From: a bacterium
GTDB taxonomy: Bacteria > SAR324 > NAC60-12
Length of the DNA stretch: 23,081 nt
Direction of reading: 5' to 3'
NCBI GenBank assembly: GCA_965205865.1
Contig: CBDBHR010000006.1
Span: 1 to 23,081, forward strand
In this document: one piece after another, positions 1 through 17,623 of the stretch
How the letters are laid out: each line of letters opens with the position of its first letter
Numbering within the stretch: position 1 is the first letter of the stretch
The notes under the pieces: generated by a model
The model's database searches: none
The model's input: only the letters and a program-made list of their open reading frames with translations
What the model was told of the DNA's origin: nothing
Position numbers and translations under genes: made by a program

Positions 1-78
1 TTCTTAAAAATAGGTGAATACCATTAAATATCATGTAAAGTCTTTCATTAATTATATCAAGATGATAAACTGATATTA

Positions 79-1650
79 GTGACGCAAAGATTTGAAAGAA
101 CCCGAGTGCGCGCCACCTCGCATGAGGGGTCAATCGTTGCAGTTACGGTATCTTCGGACTGGTTTCTTTCGTTTTTCCGTAAATCTTCAAGATTTGAAAT
201 TTTATGCGCACCATACGTGACCCCCAGATGAAGTTCGGCGAAGTCGACATTGCCGCCATCGAGTTGGATCTAAAATCCCGTGATGACATCCCCCCGATCC
301 TTCGCGGTTTGCAATACATATACGCCACTCCAGCATTACGCGCATCCGTATTCAAGGTTCTGGAACGAGTTATCCCCTCGCGAAGCGGCCCGGGCCTGAG
401 CAACGAAGACAGTTATCGCAAAGCGGACCCTCGTCTTGGTCGTCCCGGGATGGAGCAATGGAAGATTCTGGTGCTTGGCGTACTGCGCCTGGGTCTCAAC
501 AGCGATTACGACCGCATCCATGAGTTGGCTAACCATCACGACAGCATCCGGCAGATGCTCGGGCATGGAAGGTGGGAGGACAAAACGACGTACGACCGGC
601 AGACGATCAAGGATAACCTGCGTCTTTTCACACCTGAGATTCTCAATGAGATCAATCAGTTAGTTGTCAAAACCGGACATGGGCTGGTAAAAAAAAAACG
701 CCCTAAAAGATGGGCCAACCCGAGTTCGGAGGGAGAAGAAGATTGAACTTCATGATTCAACCAAGGCGCTACGTGCTCGCTGCGACTCCTTTGTGGTTGA
801 AACCAATGTACATTATCCGACCGACATCAACCTGCTCTTCGACGCCATACGCAAGACGGTTGAAGAATGCGCCAGGCTTTCACGGAGTTGCCAGTTGGTG
901 GGCTGGCGACAATATCGGAACAAGCTCAGGCAGTTCAAAAAGCAGTATCGTCTCATCCAAAAGCTCAGGCCCTCCACTTCGAAAGTTGAGCAAATAAAGC
1001 GTGCCCGTGAATAAGAGAGGCGCAAGGAATATCTCAAATACGTCCTCATGGCCAAGGCGTATCACCTGCGGGCCCGGAAAAGCCTGGAACTTTTGGAAAA
1101 ACGGGTGCGCTCCTCCTTGAAGCTGCTACGCTTGCGGTCGTCAGTTGGGACAAGGGCGCTCACAGCCCGCAGAATCAGCGTGAACTCGTTGAGCAAAGCA
1201 GACCGGCAGAGAGAAGATTCCCGGGAATTCAAACTCCTGCGCCGCCAACACTCTGCAGTCGAATCCGCCATCAACGCTCTGGAAGTGCACGGACTCGACC
1301 GATGTCCGGATCATGGAATCAAGGGGTTCGAACGCTATGTCGCTCTGGCTGTGCTTGCAAAAAACATCCACCGTCTCGGCACCGTCCTGCGTGAACAACA
1401 AAAAGAACGGCAGCGTCGTAAACGAGGACCCTACAAAAAAGCGGCCTGAACCCAAGAGTGACTCCCCATTCTGAAACAAGAGGGGAGGCCGGGAGGGGGG
1501 GCGAGTGTCCAAAAATAAGGGGGTAATAAAAAATTAGGGATCCCAAAGAAAAATAGCTTCAATTCTCTAAAATATGGCTTGTTCAAAAACAAATGTTCTC
1601 GCGGGTTCTACACCTCACTATTAGTAAAATTGTATTTTTCTGTCAGCCAC
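79..1650 (+). mobile_element. Degenerate IS (ISNCY/IS5-like DDE element), internally deleted
   Basis: Imperfect terminal IRs: GTGACGCAAAGA at 79 versus GTGGCTGACAGA (reverse complement of the end at 1650), each flanked by TA, enclosing a broken transposase. The 6-bp flanks ATATTA and TAATTA do not match. Ends are approximate. Confidence 0.7.
204..1449 (+). pseudogene. ISNCY-like transposase pseudogene
   Basis: Motifs KSRDDIP, GRPGMEQW, RCDSFVVETNVHYPTD and RRQHSAVESAINALEVHGLDRCPDHG. Frame change at the A10 run (689-698), in-frame TAA at 1012-1014, and the central DDE segment (EKV.S and D.G[FY] motifs seen in the 509-aa relative) is missing near 1140-1190. Confidence 0.88.
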
Positions 1651-1655
1651 TAATT

Positions 1656-2036
1656 ATGCAAGATGCTGTTGTGATAAGAATTTTCATCGCCCCCGAAGCG
1701 GGCACCGAAATGATTGCTGTGAATGAGGTTAGTGCTGTAATGAATCGAGGCTTGATCGGCGACCGTTACTATAAATTGACAGGCACATTCTCAAAACCAC
1801 AAATTGAACGCGATCAAGAAATAACACTAATAGAATTTGAAGCAATTGAAGAATTAGTGGTCAACTATGGAGTTAAATTAGAACTCTCTCAATCGCGGCG
1901 AAATATTGTTACGCAAAACGTGAAGTTGAACAACCTCGTAGCAAAACAATTTCAGGTTGGAGAGGTATCGTTAACAGGGATTCGACTTTGCGAACCATGT
2001 AAATATTTAAGTAAAATGACTGGGAACCGCTATCTA
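1656..2036 (+). pseudogene. MOSC-domain protein, 3'-truncated by IS
   Basis: MQDAVVIRIFIAPEAG...GLIGDRY...ITLIE...RRNIVT...GIRLCEPC are MOSC motifs. The frame enters the IS left end at 2037 and stops at 2063; the rest of the gene is not seen in the window. Confidence 0.85.
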
Positions 2037-3868
2037 GATCCTAGCCGAAAAGGTATTTTTTAGAATTATATCTTTAACTTGAGGTTAGAAAGTGCCATAA
2101 TTCATTGAAATAACTGTGAATAACTTCAATATTAAGAATTATGGCACCCAAAATGAAACCATTCATTCGAGCAGAAAAACATCTTATTTTAAGCGCTCCT
2201 GATACAGAATTTGAAAATTTCTTATCAGAACTTGATCAATTGTCTGAGCGAGAGCCGGAGATATTGGACAAAATTGAACAGGATTTGGAGAAATACGCAA
2301 GAAATAAAAAGAAAGAGCGTTTAGAGGATAAACGATGGCAGGAAGCCCGGAATCCATGGCTTCCTCATCTTCCCGTAGAAGATGAGGAATTGAAGCCGGA
2401 AGAACTGAGGCTGGAAATAGGGTGTCCTCGGATGTCGGCTTTTTTAGTCTACCTTTTTATGATGATTCGGGGATATTTAGGAAGTATCAAATCCCAAACG
2501 GCCCAAATATTTCTTTCAGAGTCAATCACACTGCATCTGCTTCTGCTCAACCGTGGATTGAAAATGCCGGGAGCGAGTACAATCCTTGATAATGTCAATG
2601 CTGTCAGCAACGAGAGCAGACAGTTTATTTTCGATGCTCAAATTCGAATGGTTCTCAATGAAGAGTTGGACGATTTTGATATTTTAAAACTGGATAGCAC
2701 CTCTGTAAAAGGAAATACAGCTTGGCCTACTGATTCGTCGATATTGACTCGTCTCGTGGAGCGAAGCTACCATCGAGGGCGTTCCCTTGATACATTTGGA
2801 ATCGCTGAGATCAGTGAAAGAAATTTTGATTTCCTCATCAAGGAGATGAATAAGCTCTCTAAGATGATTGCTTTTGAGACAGGTAAAAAGGACAGTAAAA
2901 CGAAGCGAAAAAAACATTACAAAACCCTATTGAAGAAAGCTCAAAGCGCTCATGGGAAATTTTTAAAAGAAATGGCAAAGGTGGATATCCGTGCCCAAAA
3001 AGCTCTTCTCCCCCCTTCTCGGAAAACGCGTTTGATTCGCCTCATTGAAATGATGAATGAAGATATTTCTAATTTGCAACGGGTAATCATCTACTGTCAT
3101 CAAAGAGTTTTTGAAGAAAAGAAGGTTCCTTCTACTGAGAAAGTATTGAGTCTTTCCGATCAGAGCTCGGCTTATATTCAAAAGGGAGATCGAGAAGCGC
3201 TTATCGGATATAAGCCTCAATTAGGAAGGAGCGGAAATGGTTTTATTTCCGTGTTAATTACTCCGGAGGGCAATGCTGCTGATTCAGGGCAACTCGACCC
3301 TGCCCTTGTTGAACATTTGCGATGCACCATCACCATTCCCTCTGAAGTGAGCCTTGATGATGGATATGCCAATCAGGCGATCAGAGAAAAGTGGATGGGC
3401 AAAGGCGTTAAGGTTTTTAGTATTAGTGGGGCAAAGGGAAAAAAGATGACCCCGATTGAAGAATGGGAAAGTGAAATCTATTTGGAATCACGAAATGGAA
3501 GATCTGCTGCAGAGTCGTTGATGTTTCATCTTAAGCATCGTTTCCATTTCGGACAAGTTATGCGCAGAGGGATTGAAAACGTTCGGGCAGAGTTGCTGGA
3601 AAAAGCATTAACCTATAATTTTTGCAAAATGATTGAGTTGAAAAAAAGACAACTCAAACAAGCGGCCTGAATATTCAATGGGGGAGTGTGAAATATGAGC
3701 AGGGGCGAGGAAAGTATGTCCAAAAAAGATTTTTTCCCTATAAAAACTGTGCTGTGGGCGAATAAAAAACAAAAAAATCGTTTTCTCGTCATATTGAATC
3801 AAATAGAGAATCAAATAGAATCCAATCGGTTATATTTACTATTTTCGAAACCCTTTTCGGCTAGGGTC
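2037..3868 (+). mobile_element. IS copy 1 (1832 bp, ISNCY/IS5-like DDE)
   Basis: 17-bp IRs GATCCTAGCCGAAAAGG and GACCCTAGCCGAAAAGG (1 mismatch); boundaries confirmed by copy 2; flanks TATCTA (left) and TAGCTA (right). Confidence 0.95.
2141..3670 (+). CDS. DDE transposase, 509 aa (ISNCY/IS5-like)
   Basis: Intact ORF with LDSTSV...WPTD, EKVLSLSD, SLDDGY and RSAAES motifs; duplicated at 9019-10548. Confidence 0.92.
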   Translation: MAPKMKPFIRAEKHLILSAPDTEFENFLSELDQLSEREPEILDKIEQDLEKYARNKKKERLEDKRWQEARNPWLPHLPVEDEELKPEELRLEIGCPRMSAFLVYLFMMIRGYLGSIKSQTAQIFLSESITLHLLLLNRGLKMPGASTILDNVNAVSNESRQFIFDAQIRMVLNEELDDFDILKLDSTSVKGNTAWPTDSSILTRLVERSYHRGRSLDTFGIAEISERNFDFLIKEMNKLSKMIAFETGKKDSKTKRKKHYKTLLKKAQSAHGKFLKEMAKVDIRAQKALLPPSRKTRLIRLIEMMNEDISNLQRVIIYCHQRVFEEKKVPSTEKVLSLSDQSSAYIQKGDREALIGYKPQLGRSGNGFISVLITPEGNAADSGQLDPALVEHLRCTITIPSEVSLDDGYANQAIREKWMGKGVKVFSISGAKGKKMTPIEEWESEIYLESRNGRSAAESLMFHLKHRFHFGQVMRRGIENVRAELLEKALTYNFCKMIELKKRQLKQAA

Positions 3869-4474
3869 TAGCTAGACTGCACCCATTCCAGGTTGGGATC
3901 GACATCTACGGTTCTGTTTCCGACACCAGGGGCGGACCGTGGCTCAAGAAAACCTGCTTTGTGGCTGCTTTCCAATATTTTCAGCCCCCCGACTTCCAAT
4001 GGCGTATCACCCAATGGCGCCCAACAGCTGATGGTCTCTATTGAACCACCAACAAAGACCCAATCCTGATGGGGTGGGGTGCCACGCTCATTATCACGAG
4101 GGAAGGCGATACGCCCGATCGTTTGGGGAAAAGGAACGACGCCTTTCTGGAAGAGGGCTGCCATGATGTCGATGATATTTTTGTGAAACTTCAGCTGGTG
4201 GAAAGCTTCCAGGGCTTGGACCCGAGCGTATACGGGAGCGTATTCCTCGTCCATTTCCATAATCGGGGCGCCGATCCGTCAGGCCATCCATCAAATCGGC
4301 CCCCTGGCGCAACCAACCGGCATCCTGACAAAATTCAAGGATTTTTCGTCTCAAGTGCAGAATCTCGTCTTTCGGGAGGATGTTTCTGAGAAACAAATAG
4401 CCGTCGTTGCGCAGCCGCTTACGCAGTCCCGATGGATCGTTAAGAAGGCAGTTCGATTCTTTAAACGGTTTCAC
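3869..4474 (-). pseudogene. PhyH-family Fe(II)/2-oxoglutarate dioxygenase, 5' half (frameshifted and IS-interrupted)
   Basis: GTG start at 4474 after GGAGG; DGYLFLRNIL, a one-base frameshift near 4265-4275, then TPPHQDW (HxD), CWAPLGD, GGLKILESSH; ends WVQSS at the IS right end. Confidence 0.9.
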
Positions 4475-4542
4475 TTTGTGCCTCCTGGAGGATTTTCACA
4501 AAATGCAGGATTCAATCCCTTGCGAAAAAAGGAGGCTTACTA

Positions 4543-5721
4543 GTGTATTGCCTGTTTAATACATTGTATTATTGGTCATTTGGTAGAAAGGTTTGAGTTT
4601 GTTGATAATTTCTTCGGCAGTTTTAGTCCAGACATAGGGTTTTGGGTTGCGATTGTGTGTCTCGATGTAACTATGGATGGCTTCGGTCAACTCGAGCACG
4701 CTTTTGAAGGCGCCTCGTCGAATCCGTTCTGCAGTGATCTTGCCAAAAAAGCGTTCCACCATGTTCAGCCATGAGGAGGAAGTAGGAATGAAATGCGGGT
4801 GAAATCGCGGGTGTTTTTTGAGCCATTCTTTCACCTTAAGATGTTTGTGGGTGGCGTAATTGTCCAGGATCAAGTGTACCTGCAGTTGCTTCGAGGTAGT
4901 CTTGTCAATAAGACGCAGGAAGCGCAGATACTCTTGGTGTCGGTGCCGTTTTTCACAGCGAGCGAGCACTTCCCCTGTCTGCGTATTCAAAGCAGTAAAC
5001 AGACAGCAGGTGCCATGACGGATATAATCATGAGTTCTGGTGCCATTGCGCCCTGGTTTCAGTGGCAGACCTGGCTGGGTGCGATCGAGTGCCTGGATTT
5101 GTGATTTCTCATCGACGCTCAAGACCAGCGCTTTCTCAGGAGGATTCATGTACAAACCGATGACATCTTTCAGTTTCGCAGTGAAATGCTTATCATGCGA
5201 CAACTTAAATGTTTTTTCCAGATGAGGCTTGAGGCGATGGGCCTTCCATACTTTACCGACGGTTGTCTTGCCTACGCCAACTGCCTTGGCCATCGATCGC
5301 GTGCTCCAATGGGTACGGTCCTCAGGCTTCTCTTCAATGGTTTTCTTCACAATCTCCTCGATTTTATCCGCTCCATAAATGCGTGTCCTGCCAGGCCGCG
5401 GATCATCATTGAGACCTGTTATTCCTTTTTCAACAAAGCGCCGTCGCCACTTTCCAACGGCATTACCGCTGGTTCCAAGCGTTTTGGCAATTTCTTGATT
5501 CTTAAGGCCATCAGCAGCCAACAGGATGATGCGCGCACGACGAGTGTCTCGCATCGCTCCGGTATGACGGCGTGCGGTTTTGCCCAATTCATCCCGTTCT
5601 TCCCGGGTCAGTTTTATACTTGGTGCTTTTCTCATGCTGTCTCCATATATGCAAAAAAAAGGACAGCTCGTAGTATAGCAAACCAAGGATTTTTTTACAC
5701 ATTAATAAAAGAGCGACACAC
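4543..5721 (-). mobile_element. IS630-family element
   Basis: Imperfect IRs GTGTATTGCCTGTTTAAT and GTGTGTCGCTCTTTTATT (reverse complement); TA duplicated at 4541-4542 and 5722-5723 in a CTAG context; sits between the SBP and phyH genes. Confidence 0.93.
4556..5635 (-). CDS. IS630-family transposase
   Basis: ATG at 5635 after GGAG; N-terminal HTH, HWSTRSMA, SVDEKSQIQAL, THDYIRHGT, ILDNYATHK, SSSWLNMVERFF. Confidence 0.95.
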   Translation of the reverse strand: MRKAPSIKLTREERDELGKTARRHTGAMRDTRRARIILLAADGLKNQEIAKTLGTSGNAVGKWRRRFVEKGITGLNDDPRPGRTRIYGADKIEEIVKKTIEEKPEDRTHWSTRSMAKAVGVGKTTVGKVWKAHRLKPHLEKTFKLSHDKHFTAKLKDVIGLYMNPPEKALVLSVDEKSQIQALDRTQPGLPLKPGRNGTRTHDYIRHGTCCLFTALNTQTGEVLARCEKRHRHQEYLRFLRLIDKTTSKQLQVHLILDNYATHKHLKVKEWLKKHPRFHPHFIPTSSSWLNMVERFFGKITAERIRRGAFKSVLELTEAIHSYIETHNRNPKPYVWTKTAEEIINKLKPFYQMTNNTMY

Positions 5722-5736
5722 TAGAATGAAAACGTT

Positions 5737-7047
5737 CTAGCCGTGGGCCGCCGCCGGTTGCTCGCGCAGGAGGGCGGAGAGATACTCGTCCACCTCATTC
5801 AATCCTTCGTCCACACTTTTCGATTTATCCCAAACCTTGTCCAGCATACGAGTGATTGCGCTTGAGCTGGCACCGTAAACTGAAAATTCAGCTCCCTTCG
5901 GATGAGAGACATCCCAAAAAGCAAACTGGCCATTTTCTTCGGAACCTTTGAAGTATTTCTTATGCGGTGAATTGACGTACCCTGAATAATCAAGCCCTTC
6001 TTGGGTCACCGGAATTTGAGAAGAGGCCACGCCAAATTCCCCGGCATGCTCGGCGTAGTACCCGTAAATCTTGCCTATTGCTTCCTTAACGTCATCCGGA
6101 CGTCCATAGGGGAGCACCAAGCCGCTATACTCATACATTACTGCCCGTTTATCTCCTAATACCGGCATCACGTCGCTATGGAAATTGAGGTTTTTCTGAG
6201 CAAGCGAACTGCCCACCACCCAGGTGCCCGAATAGAACGTCGAGGCCTGCCCTGTCAGCCAGTAGTCGTAGCGTTGAGTGATATTGGGATCCGTGATTTC
6301 CCATTCGTACAGGGTATTGAGGACGAATTCAGCGGCTTTCCGTCCTGCTTCATTATTGAAATTGGTCTCCTTCCCATCCGTGGTAACGACCGAACCCCCG
6401 TACTGGTAAAGCATTGCTCCCCAGATATTGTTGGGCAGAACCCCTGATCTCGGACACGAAAATCCGGACTGAATGATGTTGCCACTGCTGTCACGCAGGG
6501 TCATTTTTTTGGCCCACTCTACGAATTCTTCAAGGTTTTCCGGTTCCCGGTCGGTTGGCAAGCCTGCTTTTTCCAGGTGATCCAGGTTGTAGAAAAGGAC
6601 CCATGAATTCCAGCCGTGTGGCACCGCGTAGAGTTTTCCATTCCAGCGACAACGGTCCAGCGCAAACGGCAAGATTTTGTTGAGAGGGTAATTGGCCGTA
6701 GCCAGCATTTCATCCATCGGATCGAGTGCCTCGATACCGAGAACAAATCCTCCCATGTAAGGATAATCGCATTCGTACATATCCGGTAAATCGTTCGCGC
6801 CAAAGGCAGCGACGAACTTGGTTTCCGCATCATTCGCAAAATTCTCGAAAGTGACGTCATATCCATGTTCTTTCGCAGCGCGTTTGCCAAATTCGATCAG
6901 CGGATCTCCGGCAGACGCTCCCAATCCCAACCAGAACCGCATTTGCCTCACCGCGTACGCTTGCTGGGGCGTTAAATTCAGCGCTGCTGCCCCAGCAATG
7001 GCCAACGATGAATTTCTGATGAATCTTCTTCTTGTGATATTCTTCAT
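5737..7047 (-). CDS. Carbohydrate-type ABC transporter substrate-binding protein with Tat signal
   Basis: ATG at 7047 after GGAG; TRRRFI twin-arginine leader ending AYA; DLPDM, GKLYAVP, LFYNLDHLEKAGL. Confidence 0.92.
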   Translation of the reverse strand: MKNITRRRFIRNSSLAIAGAAALNLTPQQAYAVRQMRFWLGLGASAGDPLIEFGKRAAKEHGYDVTFENFANDAETKFVAAFGANDLPDMYECDYPYMGGFVLGIEALDPMDEMLATANYPLNKILPFALDRCRWNGKLYAVPHGWNSWVLFYNLDHLEKAGLPTDREPENLEEFVEWAKKMTLRDSSGNIIQSGFSCPRSGVLPNNIWGAMLYQYGGSVVTTDGKETNFNNEAGRKAAEFVLNTLYEWEITDPNITQRYDYWLTGQASTFYSGTWVVGSSLAQKNLNFHSDVMPVLGDKRAVMYEYSGLVLPYGRPDDVKEAIGKIYGYYAEHAGEFGVASSQIPVTQEGLDYSGYVNSPHKKYFKGSEENGQFAFWDVSHPKGAEFSVYGASSSAITRMLDKVWDKSKSVDEGLNEVDEYLSALLREQPAAAHG

Positions 7048-7143
7048 ATATGGTTTCTCCAAAAAAATTAAATTATATCTCAAATCTTTCTAAATAAGAA
7101 TTGAGATCATGCAAACAATAGTGAAGCCACGAACCGGCTTCCT

Positions 7144-7168
7144 GGCGTAAATTGAAAAAATTTACGCC
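7144..7168. other. Perfect 10-bp inverted repeat in intergenic spacer
   Basis: GGCGTAAATT-GAAAA-AATTTACGCC, next to GAAGCC-N7-GGCTTC (7123-7141). Function unknown. Confidence 0.6.
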
Positions 7169-7234
7169 TCCTCTGTGGAAATCTCGAAGCAATGAATAAT
7201 TTCCACTAAGTTTTAAAAAATCCTCCAAACAGAA

Positions 7235-8379
7235 TTATATTTTGAATCTTGTACATAAAACGTATTGCATCGGATCGGGAGCATTATCCCATTCATGGTA
7301 CGAAGCAACGATGGTGCCATCCGGGATTTGAACGACGGAGGGATAACCGATATGTTGATAAACGCCCACATTATGGGGATTAAGCACTCCCGGGCGTTCT
7401 GCCCCCACCTTTTCGGATAAAATAAAGAATTGGCTTCATCCCAATGGACCCCATCTTCAGAGATCACTCCCTTCACCCCGTAAGGTGGTCTTCGATAACC
7501 ATAAACCATCAAATATCTACCATCCATCAAACGGATTAATTCAGCAGGATAGCCCCAGATATTCGTCCAGATGGGTAATGACCAGCTAAAGCCCTTGTCC
7601 TCTGAAATGACATAGGCCATATTTTTAGCATCGCTACTGGGATTGACATGGGTGCGCATAAAGCAGACAAATCGTCCGTCTTCCAATTCCAGCAATGCCG
7701 GTTCTTCAAAATCAATAATAGAAGCCGCATCGTAGGCCAAGGTCGAGTAATACTCCCAATTGTCACCGCCGTCATCCGAACGCATCAAAGCAGAACGGAT
7801 CGTTTCTCTTTCCCCTTCTTCTCCATATCCGCGTATTCTGCCATACAGTCCCATTAAAATGGAGCCGTTGGAGAGTTGCCAGCATCCCAAGCGGCAGCCT
7901 CCATGTTTGAGCGGTCTCACGTTGACGGGGATCAGATCGGACCATGTTTCACCCTGATCATTTGATTTGAGCACATAAGTTCCTAACCACCCCTGTGTTT
8001 TATAAGCCCACGTCCAATCCCCCCATTTTTCGCTCCAGGGTTGCATCCTCCAGGAAGGCTGCTCGGCTTTAATTCCCCGTTTAAAAAATCCGGCGATCGT
8101 CAGGTTAACCAATAATGATTGGTCATTGAGTTCACATATTCCGCAATCCCAATTTCCTATTGTCTCCGACTAGGGTAAAACGATTTTTGGATCGGACCAA
8201 GTCACTCCTCCATCTGATGATTTAACCATGACGGTTTGTCCACTGTCATGATGAAACGGAAAGCGTTCTTCATTATAGACTGCAACAATTTCACCTGTGG
8301 TCAACACCCGCGTGCTGATCTGATTGAGACAATGTTCTTTGTGAGTTGCAATGGTATGATGCTCTGCTTGAATATTCAT
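7235..8379 (-). pseudogene. BNR/Asp-box (sialidase-like beta-propeller) protein pseudogene
   Basis: Five Asp-boxes (SSDGGVTW, SNDQGETW, SDDGGDNW, SEDKGFSW, SEDGVHW); in-frame TAG at 8172-8170 (VLP*SETIGNWDCG); frameshift(s) near 7385-7425; likely true C-terminus YQHIGYPSVVQIPDGTIVASYHEW...CTRFKI* ends at 7235. Confidence 0.88.
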
Positions 8380-8679
8380 GGACGTTTTCCATATCCCAGA
8401 CAGTGAAAGATGGTTTCGTTTTATCCGGATCCTTTGGGTCGTTGTATATTATCAAGATGTGAACTTTAGAAAAAGAACCATCGATAATCCTATAGAAAGC
8501 AGTGGAGAGCAATCAATATTTTCAACAGGTGTCCTCATTTTAAAGGATTTTCTCTGGGATTTCCCTGAAAAAGCAGTGCCTTCAATGGGGTTTGAACTCA
8601 AAGTCATGCTCCTTTTCATTTTCCTTTCGTAAAATTTTAAGTCGCAAATCACAGTATATCATTAATTATTTTCAGAATC

Positions 8680-8718
8680 TTGGCATTTTGCGCCAATAAA
8701 TTGGCATTTTGCGCCAAT
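8680..8718. promoter_or_regulatory. Candidate operator: 18-bp direct repeat x2, 21-bp period
   Basis: TTGGCATTTTGCGCCAAT at 8680 and 8701; each unit is itself TTGGC-N7-GCCAA; upstream of the first cluster gene. The repeat is certain, the regulatory role is inferred. Confidence 0.5.
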
Positions 8719-8914
8719 TTTTAAATACTTCTCAACTAACTTATTTTTGAGAAACCGGCTTTTTGGCAGAACATTATAACAATGGGATCGTGGACATATA
8801 GTACCGTGAATACGGGATTATCATCTTGATCTTGATTTGGGTGGCGATCTTTAGCGATGTTTTGGCCCTTTTTGGATATACGAAAATACTCTTGGCCGAC
8901 AGGCTAACTAGCTC

Positions 8915-10748
8915 GATCCTAGCCGAAAAGGTATTTTTTAGAATTATATCTTTAACTTGAGGTTAGAAAGTGCCATAATTCATTGAAATAACTGTGAATA
9001 ACTTCAATATTAAGAATTATGGCACCCAAAATGAAACCATTCATTCGAGCAGAAAAACATCTTTTTTTAAGCGCTCCTGATACAGAATTTGAAAATTTCT
9101 TATCAGAACTTGATCAATTGTCTGAGCGAGAGCCGGAGATATTGGACAAAATTGAACAGGATTTGGAGAAATACGCAAGAAATAAAAAGAAAGAGCGTTT
9201 AGAGGATAAACGATGGCAGGAAGCCCGGAATCCATGGCTTCCTCATCTTCCCGTAGAAGATGAGGAATTGAAGCCGGAAGAACTGAGGCTGGAAATAGGG
9301 TGTCCTCGGATGTCGGCTTTTTTAGTCTACCTTTTTATGATGATTCGGGGATATTTAGGAAGTATCAAATCCCAAACGGCCCAAATATTTCTTTCAGAGT
9401 CAATCACACTGCATCTGCTTCTGCTCAACCGTGGATTGAAAATGCCGGGAGCGAGTACAATCCTTGATAATGTCAATGCTGTCAGCAACGAGACCAGACA
9501 GTTTATTTTCGATGCTCAAATTCGAATGGTTCTCAATGAAGAGTTGGACGATTTTGATATTTTAAAACTGGATAGCACCTCTGTAAAAGGAAATACAGCT
9601 TGGCCTACTGATTCGTCGATATTGACTCGTCTCGTGGAGCGAAGCTACCATCGAGGGCGTTCCCTTGATACATTTGGAATCGCTGAGATCAGTGAAAGAA
9701 ATTTTGATTTCCTCATCAAGGAGATGAATAAGCTCTCTAAGATGATTGCTTTTGAGACAGGTAAAAAGGACAGTAAAACGAAGCGAAAAAAACATTACAA
9801 AACCCTATTGAAGAAAGCTCAAAGCGCTCATGGGAAATTTTTAAAAGAAATGGCAAAGGTGGATATCCGTGCCCAAAAAGCTCTTCTCCCCCCTTCTCGG
9901 AAAACGCGTTTGATTCGCCTCATTGAAATGATGAATGAAGATATTTCTAATTTGCAACGGGTAATCATCTACTGTCATCAAAGAGTTTTTGAAGAAAAGA
10001 AGGTTCCTTCTACTGAGAAAGTATTGAGTCTTTCCGATCAGAGCTCGGCTTATATTCAAAAGGGAGATCGAGAAGCGCTTATCGGATATAAGCCTCAATT
10101 AGGAAGGAGCGGAAATGGTTTTATTTCCGTGTTAATTACTCCGGAGGGCAATGCTGCTGATTCAGGGCAACTCGACCCTGCCCTTGTTGAACATTTGCGA
10201 TGCACCATCACCATTCCCTCTGAAGTGAGCCTTGATGATGGATATGCCAATCAGGCGATCAGAGAAAAGTGGATGGGCAAAGGCGTTAAGGTTTTTAGTA
10301 TTAGTGGGGCAAAGGGAAAAAAGATGACCCCGATTGAAGAATGGGAAAGTGAAATCTATTTGGAATCACGAAATGGAAGATCTGCTGCAGAGTCGTTGAT
10401 GTTTCATCTTAAGCATCGTTTCCATTTCGGACAAGTTATGCGCAGAGGGATTGAAAACGTTCGGGCAGAGTTGCTGGAAAAAGCATTAACCTATAATTTT
10501 TGCAAAATGATTGAGTTGAAAAAAAGACAACTCAAACAAGCGGCCTGAATATTCAATGGGGGAGTGTGAAATATGAGCAGGGGCGAGGAAAGTATGTCCA
10601 AAAAAGATTTTTTCCCTATAAAAACTGTGCTGTGGGCGAATAAAAAACAAAAATAAATCGTTTTCTCGTCATATTGAATCAAATAGAGAATCAAATAGAA
10701 TCCAATCGGTTATATTTACTATTTTCGAAACCCTTTTCGGCTAGGGTC
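8915..10748 (+). mobile_element. IS copy 2 (1834 bp), same orientation as copy 1
   Basis: Same IRs; differences seen: A2186/T9064, G2616/C9494 and a 2-bp length change in the 3' A-tract; flanks TAGCTC (left) and TAGCTA (right). Confidence 0.95.
9019..10548 (+). CDS. DDE transposase, 509 aa (second copy)
   Basis: Matches 2141-3670 except HLILS to HLFLS and NESRQ to NETRQ. Confidence 0.92.
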   Translation: MAPKMKPFIRAEKHLFLSAPDTEFENFLSELDQLSEREPEILDKIEQDLEKYARNKKKERLEDKRWQEARNPWLPHLPVEDEELKPEELRLEIGCPRMSAFLVYLFMMIRGYLGSIKSQTAQIFLSESITLHLLLLNRGLKMPGASTILDNVNAVSNETRQFIFDAQIRMVLNEELDDFDILKLDSTSVKGNTAWPTDSSILTRLVERSYHRGRSLDTFGIAEISERNFDFLIKEMNKLSKMIAFETGKKDSKTKRKKHYKTLLKKAQSAHGKFLKEMAKVDIRAQKALLPPSRKTRLIRLIEMMNEDISNLQRVIIYCHQRVFEEKKVPSTEKVLSLSDQSSAYIQKGDREALIGYKPQLGRSGNGFISVLITPEGNAADSGQLDPALVEHLRCTITIPSEVSLDDGYANQAIREKWMGKGVKVFSISGAKGKKMTPIEEWESEIYLESRNGRSAAESLMFHLKHRFHFGQVMRRGIENVRAELLEKALTYNFCKMIELKKRQLKQAA

Positions 10749-11016
10749 TAGCTACCGTAGCGGGGATATTCTGCTATTCAAAATGCTAACTATTCACGCT
10801 GCGGCTGCCAACGTCACGCCGGATGTCTTGCGACTTTCTGTTGATTTTCGATATACTGGTGAAAGTCACGTGATAGCTGAGGACTGGCTCCTCCCTCACT
10901 CTAGTTCTCGAGGTGAACCATTTACCTGGGACACCTTAGAAAAAGAGTGGCGCGATAGCCCCATTGCCCACTACTGGGAACGGCTGCCTAAATTGAAAAC
11001 GAAACCCCATCAATAG
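10749..11016 (+). pseudogene. PhyH-family dioxygenase, 3' half
   Basis: Reads SYRSGDILLFKMLTIHAAAANVTPDVLRLSVDFRY (distal His and Arg motifs) directly after the IS end; joins the 5' half in frame through TAGCTA. Confidence 0.9.
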
Positions 11017-11032: not shown

Positions 11033-11986
11033 ATGTCTGCCTACAAACCGATCACGCCTCCCAATAGAATTGCTGAGCAACAATTCGCCGCAAAACCTTG
11101 GTGGGTGTTTGCCTTGAAGCGACTCAATCCTGCGGCTTATACCTTTGTGATTCCTTTCTTGATCCTCTTCATTCTATTCAGGATTTATCCATTTTTGCTC
11201 GGCATAGTGACCAGTTTCACGAACGCTAAAATCGGGCCAAGACCGCCCAAGTATATTGGCTTCGACAACTACATCAATGCATTTAGCAATTCTGAAGTCC
11301 ACCGTGCTTTCATCGTCACCCTCCAGTACTCCATCATTGTGGTTCCAATGGCATTTTTTTTCGCTTTGTTCATGGCGGTCTATGTCAACCGGAAGTTAGC
11401 CACTCATACTTTTTCACGTTTGGTCTTCTTCGCGCCCTATGTCCTGGCAGCCACACTGGTGGCCATCATCTGGAACTGGATGTTTCAAACGCAATTTGGC
11501 CTGGTCAACGTGGGATTAGGGATGCTGGGGTTGCCCAGTCGGATTGCCTGGTTGAAGGAGCCGAATCTGGTTTTACCGGTAATCGCCTTTATTACAACCT
11601 GGTGGCAGGCGGGTTTCGGGATGGTGATCTTTCTTGCCGCGCTGCAAAGCATTCCCAATGAATTGGTCGAAGCCGCTCGCATTGACGGCGCGAATCCCTG
11701 GCAAGTCTTCTGGCGAATCACATTCCCCCTGTTGCTTCCCGCATCTACTTTAGTGATCACCATCACCCTCATCGAGGCAATGCGGGTTTTTAGTCTCATC
11801 CATATTATCACGCAGGGGGGCCCCAGTGATTACTCGACATCGGTAGTTTATTATATCTTCCATGTCGGCTTTACCCGCTATGAACAAGGTATGGCCGCAG
11901 CCGTTGGCGTCTTGCTTTTCTTAGTGATTATGATTTTGACTATCTTGCGTTTCACTTTGTTGCGTGGAGAGCAACGCTACTATTAG
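11033..11986 (+). CDS. Carbohydrate ABC transporter permease 1
   Basis: Multiple TM segments, IGFDNY, EAA loop LQSIPNELVEAARIDGA, TQGGP. Confidence 0.95.
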   Translation: MSAYKPITPPNRIAEQQFAAKPWWVFALKRLNPAAYTFVIPFLILFILFRIYPFLLGIVTSFTNAKIGPRPPKYIGFDNYINAFSNSEVHRAFIVTLQYSIIVVPMAFFFALFMAVYVNRKLATHTFSRLVFFAPYVLAATLVAIIWNWMFQTQFGLVNVGLGMLGLPSRIAWLKEPNLVLPVIAFITTWWQAGFGMVIFLAALQSIPNELVEAARIDGANPWQVFWRITFPLLLPASTLVITITLIEAMRVFSLIHIITQGGPSDYSTSVVYYIFHVGFTRYEQGMAAAVGVLLFLVIMILTILRFTLLRGEQRYY

Positions 11987-12002
11987 CCAGGATTTATGGG
12001 AC

Positions 12003-12860
12003 ATGAAATTTTTTAATGCCAGGCAAAAAAAACAAGTGCTCCCCTATGGAGTCGCCATCATAGGATTGGTGTTCACCATTTTATGGTTTTTCCCTTTATT
12101 GTGGATCATCCTTACCTCGATCAAACCGACGGGAGAAATCCTCACCAATCCGCCGCAATGGGTTCCGACTGAATTTATACTGGCACACTACGAGCGGGTT
12201 TTCGAAAAACCAATTGCGCAATGGACCTTCAACAGCCTTTACATTTCCATCGTTTCAACCGGAATGACGCTAATGATGGGAGCAGCCGCGGGTTATGCGT
12301 TTGCGCGGTTGCGATTTTTTGGACGCGATATATTATTTTGGCTGGTGCTCGCCTCTTTTATGATGCCCTTCGAAGTGATGCTGATTCCCTTGTATCGGAT
12401 GATGGGCAATTTTGAGCTGATTGGGACAAGGTGGTCTATTATTCTGCCCTCGGTTGCCAGCCCCTTTTCAATCTATTTATTCCGTCAGTTCTTCCTCAGC
12501 ATTCCCCGTGATTTGGAAGACGCAGCCGCCATCGATGGTGCCGGTCTCTGGGGGCGTTTCTACCGTATCGTACTGCCGTTATCCATACCGGCGTGCACCT
12601 CTGTGGGGATTCTGGCATTTGCTGAAAATTTCAACCAGTATCTCTGGCCTCTGATTATGAGCACTTCAGACACGGTGAGAACACTGCCTGTCGGGATCGC
12701 CCAGTTTTCGCCATCGCTCCGCGGGAGCACTAATATTACGGAATACTATGGTATGGGAGCGGCGGCGGCCTCACTGCTGGCCATTCCAAGCCTGATCGTT
12801 TTTTTGATATTGCAACGTTTTTTCATGAGCAATGTAATCACCTCAGGGATGAAAGGCTAA
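12003..12860 (+). CDS. Carbohydrate ABC transporter permease 2
   Basis: AGYAFARLRFFGR, LFRQFFLSIPRDLEDAAAIDGA; ATG at 12003 avoids overlap with permease 1. Confidence 0.93.
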   Translation: MKFFNARQKKQVLPYGVAIIGLVFTILWFFPLLWIILTSIKPTGEILTNPPQWVPTEFILAHYERVFEKPIAQWTFNSLYISIVSTGMTLMMGAAAGYAFARLRFFGRDILFWLVLASFMMPFEVMLIPLYRMMGNFELIGTRWSIILPSVASPFSIYLFRQFFLSIPRDLEDAAAIDGAGLWGRFYRIVLPLSIPACTSVGILAFAENFNQYLWPLIMSTSDTVRTLPVGIAQFSPSLRGSTNITEYYGMGAAAASLLAIPSLIVFLILQRFFMSNVITSGMKG

Positions 12861-12924
12861 CCTAATTCAGAGAACCCTTTCGAGATTAACTAGTACGCTT
12901 TGGCAAAGTCTGTGGTGATTCCTG

Positions 12925-14094
12925 ATGAAAAATAATTTGTACAAACTCCCCTTCACTCTCCAACAAGACGATCCTTTTGGAAAATTAGCGAAAGAGCATC
13001 CGATCAATCGTGAATCCCTGAAATTCGTATTTGTGCTTATTCCGGAATTCCCAATTTATGCGTTGATTCCGGCAATAGAAACTCTCAGGATTTGCAATAT
13101 TATTCTGAAGAAATTTTTTTTTTCATGGACGATGGTCAGCATGGGGGAACAAAGTGTGATATCCAGCAATGGCATACTCATCAACGTCGACAAGATATTG
13201 GACGAATCGGTGTTGGAGAGCGATATTCTGTTTGTTGTTTCAGGAAACAAACCCCAATTGTGTTTTGATCAAAAGCTGGCAAAAATTCTACAGCGCTTGA
13301 ATTTGAATAAACAAATCCTCGGGGGGATTGATACCGGCACTTTTGCCCTGGCCTACGCTCAATTGCTGAATGAAGGGGAATCCACCTTGCATTGGGAGGC
13401 GATCCCTCTCTTTAAGGAATTTTTTCCGGATGTCAGGGTCAAGGAATGTTTATTTTGCGTTCATGAAAATTGTGTCACCTGTGCCGGTGGCATGGCGACG
13501 GTGGATATGATGTTTCATTTGATCCATTCGTTCCTGGGCGGGGAAATAGCGGAATATGTGGCCAATGGGCTTGTTTATAATACCTGGCGCGACCATACGG
13601 ACGATCAACGGGTTCATCCCTTCCTGGGCAAGAAAAGGGCACAGGTGATCAATGGGTTGGTTCATAATACATGGCGTGACCATAGCTGGGATCAGCGGGG
13701 CCATCTGGAAGGGGAGAGTCAGAACGACCCCAACCTTCTCTGGATACGAATTTTACACTACATGGAAGATCATATAGAAAATCCTCTTCCACCCCAGGAA
13801 ATTGCAGAATTTTTCTACATGTCCCGCCGCAGTTTGGAAAGATTGTTCCGAAAATACGCAGGTGACAGTTATGCCAGGTGCTACTTAAAGCTGAGGCTGA
13901 ATTCTGCCTGTAACATGCTTTTTTACAGTGACATTTCCATCGCTTCCATTGCTTATGCCACGGGTTTTACCCCGTCTTCTTTTTCCAGATGCTTTCAAAA
14001 ACATTTCAATGTTTCCCCCAGAGCCTACCGACAAGCGAACCAAACCCGACGGCATAACGGACCGCAACCCATTTTTACAGGAACTGTTCAATGA
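12925..14094 (+). CDS. GlxA-family transcriptional regulator (DJ-1/GATase1-like domain plus AraC HTH)
   Basis: GGIDTGTFALA, TLHWE, TCAGG..VDM, then MSRRSLERLF and IAYATGF..SSFSRCFQKHFNVSPRAYR. Confidence 0.92.
   Translation: MKNNLYKLPFTLQQDDPFGKLAKEHPINRESLKFVFVLIPEFPIYALIPAIETLRICNIILKKFFFSWTMVSMGEQSVISSNGILINVDKILDESVLESDILFVVSGNKPQLCFDQKLAKILQRLNLNKQILGGIDTGTFALAYAQLLNEGESTLHWEAIPLFKEFFPDVRVKECLFCVHENCVTCAGGMATVDMMFHLIHSFLGGEIAEYVANGLVYNTWRDHTDDQRVHPFLGKKRAQVINGLVHNTWRDHSWDQRGHLEGESQNDPNLLWIRILHYMEDHIENPLPPQEIAEFFYMSRRSLERLFRKYAGDSYARCYLKLRLNSACNMLFYSDISIASIAYATGFTPSSFSRCFQKHFNVSPRAYRQANQTRRHNGPQPIFTGTVQ
13525..13704 (+). repeat. Diverged in-frame tandem duplication (30 aa + 29 aa) in the regulator
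   Basis: HSFLGGEIAEYVANGLVYNTWRDHTDDQRV and HPFLGKKRAQVINGLVHNTWRDHSWDQRG. Confidence 0.9.
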
Positions 14095-14268
14095 TCTCAG
14101 CGAAATATGGTGTCTCTAAAGAAGAAGTCCGACAATACCATCGACAGGAGTGGTTTGGCCCATTTACGCTCATTTCTGAATTAGAGATGGCTGAGATACG
14201 GTAAAAGATCGAGGGGTATTTCGCTCCCAACTACTTTCAATTATTCACATACTGCCACTCAGGAAATC

Positions 14269-15222
14269 ATGACCGATTATGAAAAATTGAAAAGCAAATT
14301 AGCAGGATGTTATGTGACGATTCCCACTATGTTTCACGACGAGGATCTCTCCTTGGATGCGGAGTCGATGAAATCCCATGTCCATTACTTAATTGGGAGA
14401 GGAATGCGTGCTGAAAACGCGGTTTTTCTTGCTGGCGGAGCAGCAGGCGATTTTTCCACCATGACATTTGGTGAACGGGTTGCAGTGACAAAAGCTATTA
14501 TTGAAGCAACTCGAGGAAGAGTGCCGGTAGCGATGGGAGGGCAAACCACCAATACCCTGGAGTTGGTCAAACTCATCAAAACCGCTGCGGACATCGGGGC
14601 GGATTACGTGCAAATTTCGCCTCCTTATTACTTCACTCATACCGAAGAGGATTTTTATGAATTCGCGATGGCGGGAGCAAAGGCCTCTAAAGAAATCGGT
14701 ATTATTATGTATAACACATTTTGGACAAGCACCAATATCAGCAATTCTCTGGTTGAGAAACTGGCGGAAATCCCCAATATCGTTGGCTTGAAATGGGCCG
14801 TACCGCGTACCGATGCGATGGAATTCGAGACGGTATGTGCCAAGTATTCCCATCGTTTTTGCATCATCGACAACAATCTCTTATTCAATATCAGTTTTAT
14901 GATGGGAGCAAAAGCGATAGAAGTGCATGCCTGCAATTACTGGCCGGAACTGGGAATAAAAATGTATGAAGATCTGAAAAATAAAAATTACCAAGAGGTT
15001 CAAAACGATTTGATTGAAAAGATCATGCCGTTTTATCACCTTTGGGCGCAAATCGAACAAGAGTATACCAGTGGAGACGGATATCTCGATAAACTGTGCA
15101 TGGAACTGGTTGGGCTGCCATCGAGCTGGTGCCGCCCACCCACCCGCGATATCCGTCAAAAATACAAAGACCAAACCAGAAATATGATGCTCCGCTCTGG
15201 TGTTCCGGGAGTGTTGGCCTGA
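14269..15222 (+). CDS. DHDPS/N-acetylneuraminate-lyase family class I aldolase or dehydratase
   Basis: IPTMF, GGAAGDFSTMTFGER, GRVPVAMG, SPPYY, MYN, PNIVGLKW (Schiff-base Lys). Confidence 0.9.
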   Translation: MTDYEKLKSKLAGCYVTIPTMFHDEDLSLDAESMKSHVHYLIGRGMRAENAVFLAGGAAGDFSTMTFGERVAVTKAIIEATRGRVPVAMGGQTTNTLELVKLIKTAADIGADYVQISPPYYFTHTEEDFYEFAMAGAKASKEIGIIMYNTFWTSTNISNSLVEKLAEIPNIVGLKWAVPRTDAMEFETVCAKYSHRFCIIDNNLLFNISFMMGAKAIEVHACNYWPELGIKMYEDLKNKNYQEVQNDLIEKIMPFYHLWAQIEQEYTSGDGYLDKLCMELVGLPSSWCRPPTRDIRQKYKDQTRNMMLRSGVPGVLA

Positions 15223-15329
15223 TAAAAAGTCGTCAGTCCCCAATCGTAACGAGCCAGGGAAGATGGTACGGTTTTCTTGACGGGGGTCGTCTGAATGAAA
15301 AAAGCAGAAGAAATAACAGAGCTGAGATT

Positions 15330-15365
15330 CCCCTCACCCTGACCCTCTCCCTCCGGGGGAGAGGG
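15330..15365. repeat. REP-like palindromic element
   Basis: CCCCTCACCCTGA followed by a 9-bp stem CCCTCTCCC-TCCGG-GGGAGAGGG; resembles a widespread extragenic repeat type. Confidence 0.75.
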
Positions 15366-15392
15366 AACATCTAAATAATTGGAGCGTGGTTG

Positions 15393-17554: not shown

Positions 17555-17623
17555 TATCATGGCAATTTTGCTTGAACCCCTGATATCATGGCATGATATC
17601 ATGGCAATTTTGCTTGAACCCCT
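17550..17623. repeat. Compound direct repeat at the gene end
   Basis: CATGATATCATGGCAATTTTGCTTGAACCCCT at 17550 and 17592, with a partial TGATATCATGGCA at 17581. Confidence 0.9.

What the first reader, a model, noticed from the sequence alone, without database searches (positions are those of the whole stretch)
2031..11016. Footprint of an inside-end deletion-inversion: phyH split at a duplicated TAGCTA, both halves on IS right ends
Seen: the phyH 5' half (minus strand) ends CAG TCT AGC TA at the copy 1 right end (3869). The 3' half (plus strand) begins T AGC TAC CGT AGC GGG GAT at the copy 2 right end (10749). Merging the shared TAGCTA restores one frame, WVQSSYRSGDILLF, reuniting HxD with the distal His. 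The IS copies are direct repeats although 3869-8914 is inverted relative to the downstream operon. Established: a simple insertion puts the duplicated target on one left and one right end, and recombination between direct repeats deletes rather than inverts. Tn10/IS10 inside-end intramolecular transposition gives an inverted segment between direct copies and loses the DNA that lay between them. Inference: two head-to-head copies paired their right ends and attacked phyH. This also explains the missing MOSC 3' end and the unmatched left flanks, and implies this transposase can use two right ends.
Basis: partly seen in the sequence, partly recalled or inferred. Interest (0 to 1): 0.85.

Follow-up and report, generated by a model that had tools for sequence, protein, structure and literature searches.

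The report
IS pair inverted and split phyH
Two copies of one insertion sequence most likely acted together in a single cut-and-paste event that cut a dioxygenase gene in two, flipped 5 kb of a sugar-uptake operon and discarded the DNA between the copies, which is a textbook transposon rearrangement seen here in an unstudied element.

Summary
Two 1.83-kb copies of an ISNCY-like insertion sequence (cores w2037-3868 and w8915-10748) lie in direct orientation. Each right end abuts one half of a PhyH-family gene through the hexamer TAGCTA.

A same-genus complete genome (G001) and contigs of three public runs carry the gene whole, with the hexamer once. There, w3875-8415 lies in the opposite orientation, colinear with the downstream operon.

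Genome-wide, the hexamer is this element's 6-bp target duplication and not part of its inverted repeat.

Homologous recombination, single-copy replicative inversion and tandem-dimer junctions all leave one half on a left end. That leaves two routes: a joint attack by two right ends, or a double insertion at one hexamer followed by further rearrangements.

The single-event reading, a Tn10-type deletion-inversion, is favoured at about 0.65. It also fits the unmatched left hexamers and the two truncated left-flank genes whose remainders were not found. The precursor arrangement was not seen.

This is a known kind of rearrangement in a new element. This scan noted a similar case before on other DNA (e1-2746558). 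Interest is modest.

The parts
1..1656 (+). Second, different ISNCY-like element (IS#2) with a decayed transposase (pieces at w204-746 and w1048-1449). It ends at the start codon of the MOSC gene. The contig begins inside it.
   Evidence: Three copies of about 1.65 kb in G001. More than 15 copies at 94-97% in G000. NF033593 matches to both ORF pieces.
1656..2030 (+). 5' part of a MOSC-domain gene (125 codons before the hexamer, out of about 155), cut by IS copy 1. The last 28 residues are missing.
   Evidence: Pfam MOSC at 23.8 bits. 1013 homologues found, the best of about 155 aa at 64% identity. Alignment A1 shows the truncation. The remainder was not found in G000. The gene was not found in G001.
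2031..2036 (.). Left-flank hexamer of copy 1, TATCTA. It is the orphan half of an older target duplication.
2037..3868 (+). IS copy 1 (1832 bp). Its 17-bp terminal inverted repeats are GATCCTAGCCGAAAAGG on the left and GACCCTAGCCGAAAAGG on the right (reverse complement). The transposase ORF is w2141-3670 (509 aa).
3869..3874 (.). TAGCTA, the target duplication copy on the phyH 5' half, next to the right end of copy 1.
3875..4498 (-). phyH 5' part, holding the HQD motif. It has one extra base near w4271 that shifts the frame in the window only.
   Evidence: The extra base at w4271 is absent from contigs of all 4 runs laid.
4539..5719 (-). IS630-family element inserted at a CTAG between the SBP gene and phyH. 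It is absent from G001 and from contigs of X2, X4, X5 and X7.
   Evidence: NF033545 at 281.5 bits against a cut-off of 100..
5737..8112 (-). Inverted upstream part of the operon: an ABC solute-binding protein (w5737-7083) and a BNR_2 protein (w7213-8112).
   Evidence: Pfam matches. Colinear with G001 at 86% identity.
8802..8908 (+). Relic of a dppC-like permease gene (residues 43-75 of the G001 paralogue) running into the left end of copy 2.
8909..8914 (.). Left-flank hexamer of copy 2, TAGCTC, an orphan. In X4, X5 and X7 a 2623-nt contig aligns up to w8914 and then continues for 585 letters that do not lie on the stretch, so this site is empty there.
8915..10748 (+). IS copy 2 (1834 bp), in direct orientation to copy 1. 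The transposase ORF is w9019-10548.
10749..10754 (.). TAGCTA, the target duplication copy on the phyH 3' half, next to the right end of copy 2.
10755..11013 (+). phyH 3' part (88 codons counted from the hexamer), holding the distal His (TIHAAA).
11033..17561 (+). Downstream operon in its original orientation: two ABC permeases, DHDPS-family, 2-hydroxyacid dehydrogenase and MR/MLE enolase-type genes. An AraC/DJ-1 gene (w12925-14094) has no DNA match in the 60-kb G001 region compared.

Best explanation
One intramolecular cut-and-paste event of the Tn10 'deletion-inversion' type.

Inferred starting state: two copies of this IS sat in opposite orientation with their right ends facing each other. 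One interrupted the MOSC gene. The other interrupted a dppC-like relic upstream of the BNR/SBP/phyH/permease operon.

Inferred event: transposase paired the two facing right ends, cut them free of the DNA between them (which was lost), and joined both ends to the staggered 6-bp target TAGCTA inside phyH, on opposite strands.

Shown result:
- The segment between the second copy and the target, including that copy, is inverted.
- The copies are now direct repeats.
- Each phyH half carries TAGCTA on a right end.
- Each copy keeps its old, unmatched left hexamer.
For: 1. Exact 6-bp duplication on two right ends, judged against intact genes in G001 and in contigs of 3 runs from 3 studies.

2. The hexamer is this element's target duplication. 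12 of 29 paired copies have identical hexamers on both sides. Five of those are non-consensus hexamers repeated directly: TATCTA, TAGCTG twice, TAGTTA and CAGCTA. Two simple insertions in dppC paralogues abut at residues 251/252 and 306.

3. Direct copies flank a segment inverted relative to G001 and to X4/X5/X7.

4. Geometry, by reasoning: recombination never changes which end type a flank sits on. Single-copy replicative inversion and attack from a right-left dimer junction each give one right-end and one left-end junction.

5. Left hexamers are TATCTA and TAGCTC, against TAGCTA on both right ends.

6. The MOSC 3' end was not found by HMM or tblastn. No IS end among the 69 examined carries a dppC continuation from about residue 76.

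7. None of the 33 left-end flanks is another copy's left end, so the assembly holds no left-end to left-end junction.

8. The element looks recently active: 27 of 37 transposase matches in G000 are full-length and open at 99-100% identity, and there is no match in G001.

9. The structure matches the published definition of a deletion-inversion, including 'to produce a direct repeat' (PMC2723962, passages read).
Against: - The precursor arrangement was not seen. G001 lacks the MOSC gene and w8416-8812, so the adjacency of the MOSC gene to the operon could not be tested.
- 17 of 29 copies have unmatched hexamers, so recombination between copies is frequent here and multi-step histories are not far-fetched.
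- Tandem copies sharing a single TAGCTA exist at two loci. This shows the element can land in the hexamer beside an existing copy, which is the first step of the rival.
- The missing MOSC piece is only 28 residues, so a failed search is weak evidence. The dppC-like piece is a relic, and its continuation may not be dppC-like at all.
- The window is a whole 23-kb contig bounded by repeats.
- A contig of the best-matching run, X2, lacks the IS630 copy that the window has. The strain or population is therefore polymorphic.
Confidence: 0.65

Rival explanations
1. Multi-step route. A first copy inserted into phyH. A second copy then inserted in opposite orientation into the TAGCTA beside it, with left ends facing. 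After that, one inversion by recombination with a third copy upstream of the operon, plus at least one further recombination or deletion, removed the left-left junction and brought in the MOSC flank.
For: The element does insert into hexamers beside existing copies: tandem pairs share one TAGCTA at C28:336916-340599 and C27:19002-21728. Flank reshuffling is common, with 17 of 29 copies showing unmatched hexamers. Orphan left and right hexamers of the same type occur elsewhere, for example TAGCTT twice on each side.
Against: It needs at least four events against three. No left-left junction is present among the 33 left-end flanks. Both tandems seen are head-to-tail, not head-to-head. It does not predict that both left-flank genes lose their remainders.
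Confidence: 0.22
2. Artefact. The sample holds two subpopulations with opposite-orientation insertions at the same TAGCTA, or the assembler mis-threaded reads through the 30-copy repeat, so the contig is a chimera.
For: The contig is short (23 kb) and ends in repeats. The window carries an extra base at w4271 that is absent from all 4 runs laid. X2 contigs lack the IS630 copy. X2 depth is lower over w10941-12000 (1.45-2) than over w3869-8764 (5.7-7.7).
Against: Both junctions are right-end type from the third base inward: GTC, then the interior that is specific to the right end. The two copies differ by single-base changes and a 2-bp indel, so they were resolved separately. No second copy of either phyH half exists in the assembly. 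X2 shows no intact-phyH joint, and its contigs stop 22-23 letters into the IS at w3869 and w8937, as expected for these junctions. These overhangs are under the 31 letters needed to count as bridging. A chimera would not supply two different truncated genes on the left flanks.
Confidence: 0.08
3. A simple insertion in phyH followed only by homologous recombination between IS copies, or a replicative intramolecular inversion by a single copy (IS26-like).
For: Recombination between copies is evidently frequent.
Against: Both routes leave one gene half on a left end. The replicative route also leaves inverted, not direct, copies. Here both halves sit on right ends and the copies are direct.
Confidence: 0.02

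Closest known systems
Tn10/IS10 inside-end 'deletion-inversion' (described in PMC2723962, passages read; the original Tn10 papers are recalled, not read)
   Same: The DNA between two inversely oriented IS copies is lost. Both like ends join one target. The segment up to the target is inverted together with one copy. The copies end up direct, and the target duplication sits on the same kind of end of both.
   Different: The element is an uncharacterised ISNCY-like IS with a 6-bp duplication and a strict TAGCTA target, not an IS4-family element with 9 bp. This is a natural chromosomal footprint in an environmental bacterium, not a selected plasmid event. No known composite transposon was the donor. 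The cleavage chemistry is untested.
IS26-type intramolecular replicative transposition giving inversions (PMC4471558: search listing and abstract start only; the structure is recalled)
   Same: An IS-driven inversion with the target duplication split between two copies.
   Different: That route uses both ends of one copy, makes a new copy in inverted orientation, leaves one left-end and one right-end junction, and loses no DNA. The locus here fails each of these points.
(IS)2 tandem dimers and circle junctions of IS30, IS21, IS3 and IS256 families (PMC3299598: abstract start only; the rest is recalled)
   Same: This genome holds head-to-tail tandems with right and left ends separated by a single 6-bp hexamer.
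   Different: Attack from such a junction would put the gene halves on one right and one left end. It does not explain this locus.
ISNCY family, NCBIfam NF033593. The ISDol1-like group is my recollection of ISfinder (about 1.6-1.9 kb with a 6-7-bp duplication) and was not checked.
   Same: It is the best family match, covering residues 86-498 of the transposase. Length and duplication size fit what I recall.
   Different: The score of 270.4 bits is below the curated cut-off of 325. No close relative was found in 39 of 40 related genomes or by the genome-contig scan.

Membership tests
Tn10-type deletion-inversion (a rearrangement class) | Two copies of one IS in direct orientation bracket a segment that is inverted relative to the ancestral order | tested here: met
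   Direct copies at 1841/1847 identities. The segment is inverted relative to G001 and to contigs of X4, X5 and X7.
Tn10-type deletion-inversion (a rearrangement class) | One target sequence, duplicated at the element's usual length, lies next to the same kind of end of both copies | tested here: met
   TAGCTA lies on both right ends and is single in the intact genes. The 6-bp duplication length was established from other copies.
Tn10-type deletion-inversion (a rearrangement class) | The DNA that lay between the two reacting ends is lost | tested here: inconclusive
   The MOSC 3' end (28 residues) and a dppC continuation were not found in G000. The lost segment's sequence is unknown, and the assembly is 91.9% complete.
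Tn10-type deletion-inversion (a rearrangement class) | A precursor with two inversely oriented copies whose reacting ends face each other | not testable with these tools
   G001 lacks the IS, the MOSC gene and w8416-8812.
Tn10-type deletion-inversion (a rearrangement class) | Conservative (double-strand cut) transposition chemistry | not testable with these tools
ISNCY family transposase (NF033593) | Whole-protein score above the curated cut-off | tested here: not met
   270.4 bits against a cut-off of 325. It is still the best family by far, with IS1182 at 59.8 and IS5 at 56.1 bits. Pfam DDE_Tnp_1 scores 31.7 against a cut-off of 23.
PhyH (PF05721) Fe(II)/2-oxoglutarate dioxygenases | Pfam match above the gathering score | tested here: met
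   The intact G001 orthologue (80% identical to the 5' half) scores 57.5 bits against a cut-off of 22. The two window halves alone gave no family at E <= 0.001.
PhyH (PF05721) Fe(II)/2-oxoglutarate dioxygenases | HxD...H iron-binding triad (motif recalled) | tested here: inconclusive
   HQD lies in the 5' half and TIHAAA in the 3' half. These were not mapped onto a solved structure.
IS630 family (element at w4539-5719) | NF033545 match above the cut-off | tested here: met
   281.5 bits against a cut-off of 100.

The most novel reading that the evidence does not exclude
This unclassified, TAGCTA-specific ISNCY-like element is a conservative cut-and-paste IS in the middle of a recent burst. Ends of separate copies pair in vivo. 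Split target duplications on like ends could then serve as a sequence-only test of transposition chemistry (conservative against replicative) for IS families that nobody has studied at the bench. They would also record rearrangements that recombination cannot make.
Probability: 0.45. Interest if true: 0.4.

Novelty: new member of a known kind. Interest (0 to 1): 0.33.

Why it matters
It is a clean natural footprint of a rearrangement class known mainly from selected Tn10 events on plasmids, and it occurs in an IS family with no biochemistry. If the single-event reading is right, the footprint says the element cuts both strands at its ends. It also shows how an IS burst dismantles an operon: phyH is split and the solute-binding gene is inverted away from its permeases. 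Beyond that it is ordinary IS-driven genome shuffling, and this scan has already reported a similar case in another genome.

Tried and rejected
1. TAGCTA as the outer part of the inverted repeat. It flanks nearly every copy. Rejected because non-consensus hexamers recur as direct repeats, not inverted ones, on 5 copies, and because the intact genes hold it only once.

2. A second right-end/right-end pair at C29:614929 and C30:1190908, whose flanks are reverse complements over 36 bp. Rejected: the 36-mer is the end of a roughly 230-bp repeat with about 60 copies.

3. A partner for the copy 1 left flank. The two right ends carrying TATCTA do not continue the MOSC frame. The MOSC HMM found only an E 0.28 hit elsewhere. 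tblastn with 8 homologues and their C-termini gave only chance hits, and the best one lies out of frame inside a dppC paralogue.

4. A partner for the copy 2 left flank:
   - Neither right end with TAGCTC (C13:106, C29:513349) continues the dppC frame.
   - C13's flank is a truncated dppA-like gene.
   - A candidate at C30:106985 is a dppB-dppC deletion fusion with no IS.
   - Looser blast of the G001 region around the C13 flank's match found no partner on an IS end.

5. A census of other unmatched copies by mapping their flanks on G001 (4 loci). The flanks are mostly other repeats or stop short of the junction, so I abandoned it.

6. Close strains in metagenome contigs. The best BNR_2 match was 78% identical, and none of the 80 loci holds the MOSC gene.

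7. Scans for the IS itself. The genome-contig scan with the transposase found no relative.

8. Fetching the related strains' dppC-like protein. The query was only 37 aa, below the tool's minimum of 40, so I dropped the step.

9. Read laying limits. In X2 the contigs reach only 22-23 letters into the IS, too few to count as bridging. Parts without cover and depth differences are not used as evidence.

10. PMC11708052 (passages read) does not deal with this kind of event.


Full report
WHAT IS THERE

The window is a whole 23,081-bp contig (C6) of a 4.74-Mb, 30-contig genome. Two stretches, w2030-3874 and w8908-10754, are direct repeats with 1841/1847 identities and one 2-base gap. Each holds a 509-aa ORF with a DDE_Tnp_1 domain. 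Its best NCBIfam match is ISNCY NF033593, at 270.4 bits, below the cut-off of 325.

The genome carries about 30 full copies plus fragments. Of 37 transposase matches, 27 are full-length, open and 99-100% identical. At E <= 1e-20 the transposase was found in 2 of 41 genomes searched: G000 itself and a partial 54% match in G010. It was not found in the same-genus genome G001. This looks like a recent burst.

WHERE THE ELEMENT ENDS

Aligning the flanks of all copies puts the constant part at GATCCTAGCCGAAAAGG ... CCTTTTCGGCTAGGGTC. These are 17-bp inverted repeats with one mismatch. A TAGCTA-like hexamer lies outside each end.

The hexamer could have been the tip of the inverted repeat. It is not, for three reasons:
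- 12 of 29 paired copies have identical hexamers on both sides. Five of these are non-consensus hexamers repeated directly (TATCTA, TAGCTG twice, TAGTTA, CAGCTA), and the reverse complement is not what appears.
- Two copies inside dppC paralogues abut at residues 251/252 and at 306.
- The intact phyH genes hold the hexamer once (see below).

So the element makes a 6-bp target duplication at a near-palindromic target. TAGCTA is rare here, with 194 sites against about 1248 expected.

The cores are therefore w2037-3868 and w8915-10748. The hexamers are TATCTA/TAGCTA for copy 1 and TAGCTC/TAGCTA for copy 2.

THE SPLIT GENE

On the minus strand, next to copy 1's right end, a frame ends ...NLEWVQSS*. 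On the plus strand, next to copy 2's right end, a frame begins SSYRSGDILLF... and runs for 88 codons. Neither half alone reaches any Pfam family at E <= 0.001.

G001, a complete same-genus genome, has an intact 301-aa ORF that is 80% identical to the 5' half and matches Pfam PhyH at E 3.1e-15. At the break it reads GCAGTC TGGCTA CCACTG. The window reads GCAGTC TAGCTA followed by the right end, and the right end followed by TAGCTA CCGTAG. The two halves overlap by exactly the hexamer.

Contigs of three public runs from three studies (X4, X5, X7) share about three quarters of the sampled words. Each joins w3878 to w10746 on opposite strands, with 9 letters common to both sides. That is the whole gene with one TAGCTA and no IS.

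In 3 of 80 metagenome loci that encode a BNR_2 relative, the two halves align back to back.

THE INVERSION

G001 is colinear with the reverse complement of w8415-5720 and of w4543-3869, followed directly by w10746-17561. The ancestral operon therefore ran BNR_2, solute-binding protein, PhyH, two permeases and onward. In the window, the part upstream of the break is flipped.

The same three runs also show the copy 2 site empty. A 2623-nt contig aligns up to w8914, the last base of TAGCTC, and then runs on for 585 letters that are not IS. Those letters were not displayed.

WHAT CAN PRODUCE THIS (REASONING FROM ESTABLISHED TRANSPOSITION GEOMETRY)

- Recombination between IS copies re-pairs left and right ends but never moves a flank from one kind of end to the other. 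A simple insertion followed by any number of such exchanges keeps one gene half on a left end.
- Replicative intramolecular inversion by one copy gives inverted copies, with one half on each kind of end.
- Attack from the right-left junction of a tandem dimer does the same.
- Two routes remain: a joint attack by the right ends of two copies, or two separate insertions into the same hexamer followed by more rearrangement.

The joint attack is the Tn10 'deletion-inversion'. [quoted passage not shown] The same paper says such products 'seem unique to conservative transposition'.

TESTS OF THE SINGLE-EVENT READING

It predicts orphan left hexamers, and these are found. It also predicts loss of whatever lay beyond the two old right ends.

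Copy 1's left flank is a MOSC gene cut 28 residues before its end. Only w1656-2030 is unique, because w1-1656 is a second, decayed ISNCY-like element. The missing end was not found with the Pfam model or with 8 homologues. The two right ends that carry TATCTA do not continue the frame.

Copy 2's left flank is a relic of a dppC-like permease, covering residues 43-75. None of the 69 IS ends carries a continuation from about residue 76, and no paralogue starts there.

No left-left junction exists among the 33 left-end flanks.

All of this fits the model, but none of it is strong. The MOSC piece is short, the relic may not continue as dppC, and the precursor was not seen. G001 lacks the MOSC gene and w8416-8812.

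WHAT SPEAKS FOR THE RIVALS

Unmatched hexamers are common, in 17 of 29 copies. Orphan left and right hexamers of the same kind occur elsewhere, so recombination between copies is frequent.

Tandem pairs sharing one TAGCTA exist at two loci. One pair of internally deleted copies is bounded by a matching outer GAGCTA. So the element can land beside itself. A head-to-head double insertion, one inversion and one further exchange would also yield this locus, at the price of more events and a vanished left-left junction.

An assembly or mixture artefact is unlikely for these reasons:
- Both junctions are right-end type from the third base inward.
- The two copies differ from each other.
- Each gene half occurs only once in the assembly.

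It is not excluded, however. The contig is short and bounded by repeats. It has an extra base at w4271 that no run shows. Contigs of X2, the run that shares 98% of the sampled words, lack the IS630 copy at w4539-5719. X2 shows no intact-phyH joint, but its contigs enter the IS by only 22-23 letters, too few to count as bridging.

VERDICT

I put it at about 0.65, the multi-step route at about 0.22 and an artefact at about 0.08.

The inference that the transposase 'can use two right ends' adds little. The ends share 16 of 17 terminal bases, and composite transposons use like ends routinely.

This is a new example of a known kind of event in an unstudied IS.

LITERATURE CHECKED

- search terms 'intramolecular transposition', 'inside ends', 'inversion', 'IS10'.
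- 'ISNCY', 'ISDol1'.
- 'deletion-inversion', 'insertion sequence', 'target site duplication'.

None of the listed titles describes this element or a natural deletion-inversion by an ISNCY member. That is not proof that none is in print.

Noticed in passing
w4539-5719: An IS630-family element sits at a CTAG between the SBP gene and phyH. It is absent from G001. Contigs of all four runs laid skip it, including X2, which otherwise matches the window best. It is a very recent or polymorphic insertion.
   Followed up: partly
w4271: The window has one base more than G001 and than contigs of all 4 runs. This shifts the frame of the phyH 5' half. It is probably an assembly error, in which case the gene half is otherwise undecayed.
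   Followed up: partly
G000 genome-wide: The IS targets TAGCTA-like hexamers: 33 of 69 ends carry TAGCTA, and the rest differ at one position, apart from one decayed end (TATTTG). TAGCTA is about six-fold under-represented in the genome (194 sites against about 1248 expected).
   Followed up: partly
G000 C28:336916-340599 and C27:19002-21728: Head-to-tail tandem IS pairs have the right and left ends separated by a single TAGCTA. The C27 pair of internally deleted copies is bounded by a matching outer GAGCTA, as if the dimer had moved as one unit.
   Followed up: no
G000, 29 paired copies: 17 of 29 copies have different hexamers on their two sides, many differing only at position 6. Orphan left and right hexamers of the same type are roughly balanced, which points to widespread recombination between copies.
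   Followed up: partly
w18971-19203 and about 60 sites in G000: A repeat of about 230 bp, with more than 40 copies in G001, ends in TAACTA + 24 nt + TAGTTA. The IS has inserted into these end hexamers in several copies.
   Followed up: partly
w1-1656: A second ISNCY-like element with a broken transposase ends exactly at the MOSC start codon. It has more than 15 copies in G000 and at least 3 in G001. The contig starts inside it.
   Followed up: partly
w22916-23081 and G000 C13:17363-17528: The right end of the contig overlaps the right end of contig C13 in reverse (166 bp, 100%). C13 starts inside another copy of the IS, whose right end (hexamer TAGCTC) truncates a dppA-like gene.
   Followed up: partly
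w12925-14094: An AraC-type regulator with a DJ-1/PfpI domain lies between the permeases and the DHDPS-family gene. It has no DNA match in the 60-kb G001 region compared, where the neighbouring matches lie only about 160 bp apart.
   Followed up: no
w17396-17455 and w17550-17623: There is an exact 30-bp tandem duplication, and an exact 32-bp repeat spaced 42 bp apart, at and just past the 3' end of the enolase-type gene.
   Followed up: no
w10941-12000 in run X2: Contig depth is 1.45-2 here, against 5.7-7.7 over w3869-8764 in the same run. This is unexplained and may just be noise at low coverage.
   Followed up: no
G000 C29:8227 and C29:35005: Two IS copies in opposite orientation carry identical right-end flanks (CAGCTA plus at least 40 nt). 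This is an inverted duplication that includes the IS.
   Followed up: no
G000 C30:~463000: This is a breakpoint relative to G001. Sequence matching G001 1322034 (descending) meets sequence matching G001 1373536 (ascending). That would be one junction of a roughly 51-kb inversion that once contained this operon.
   Followed up: no
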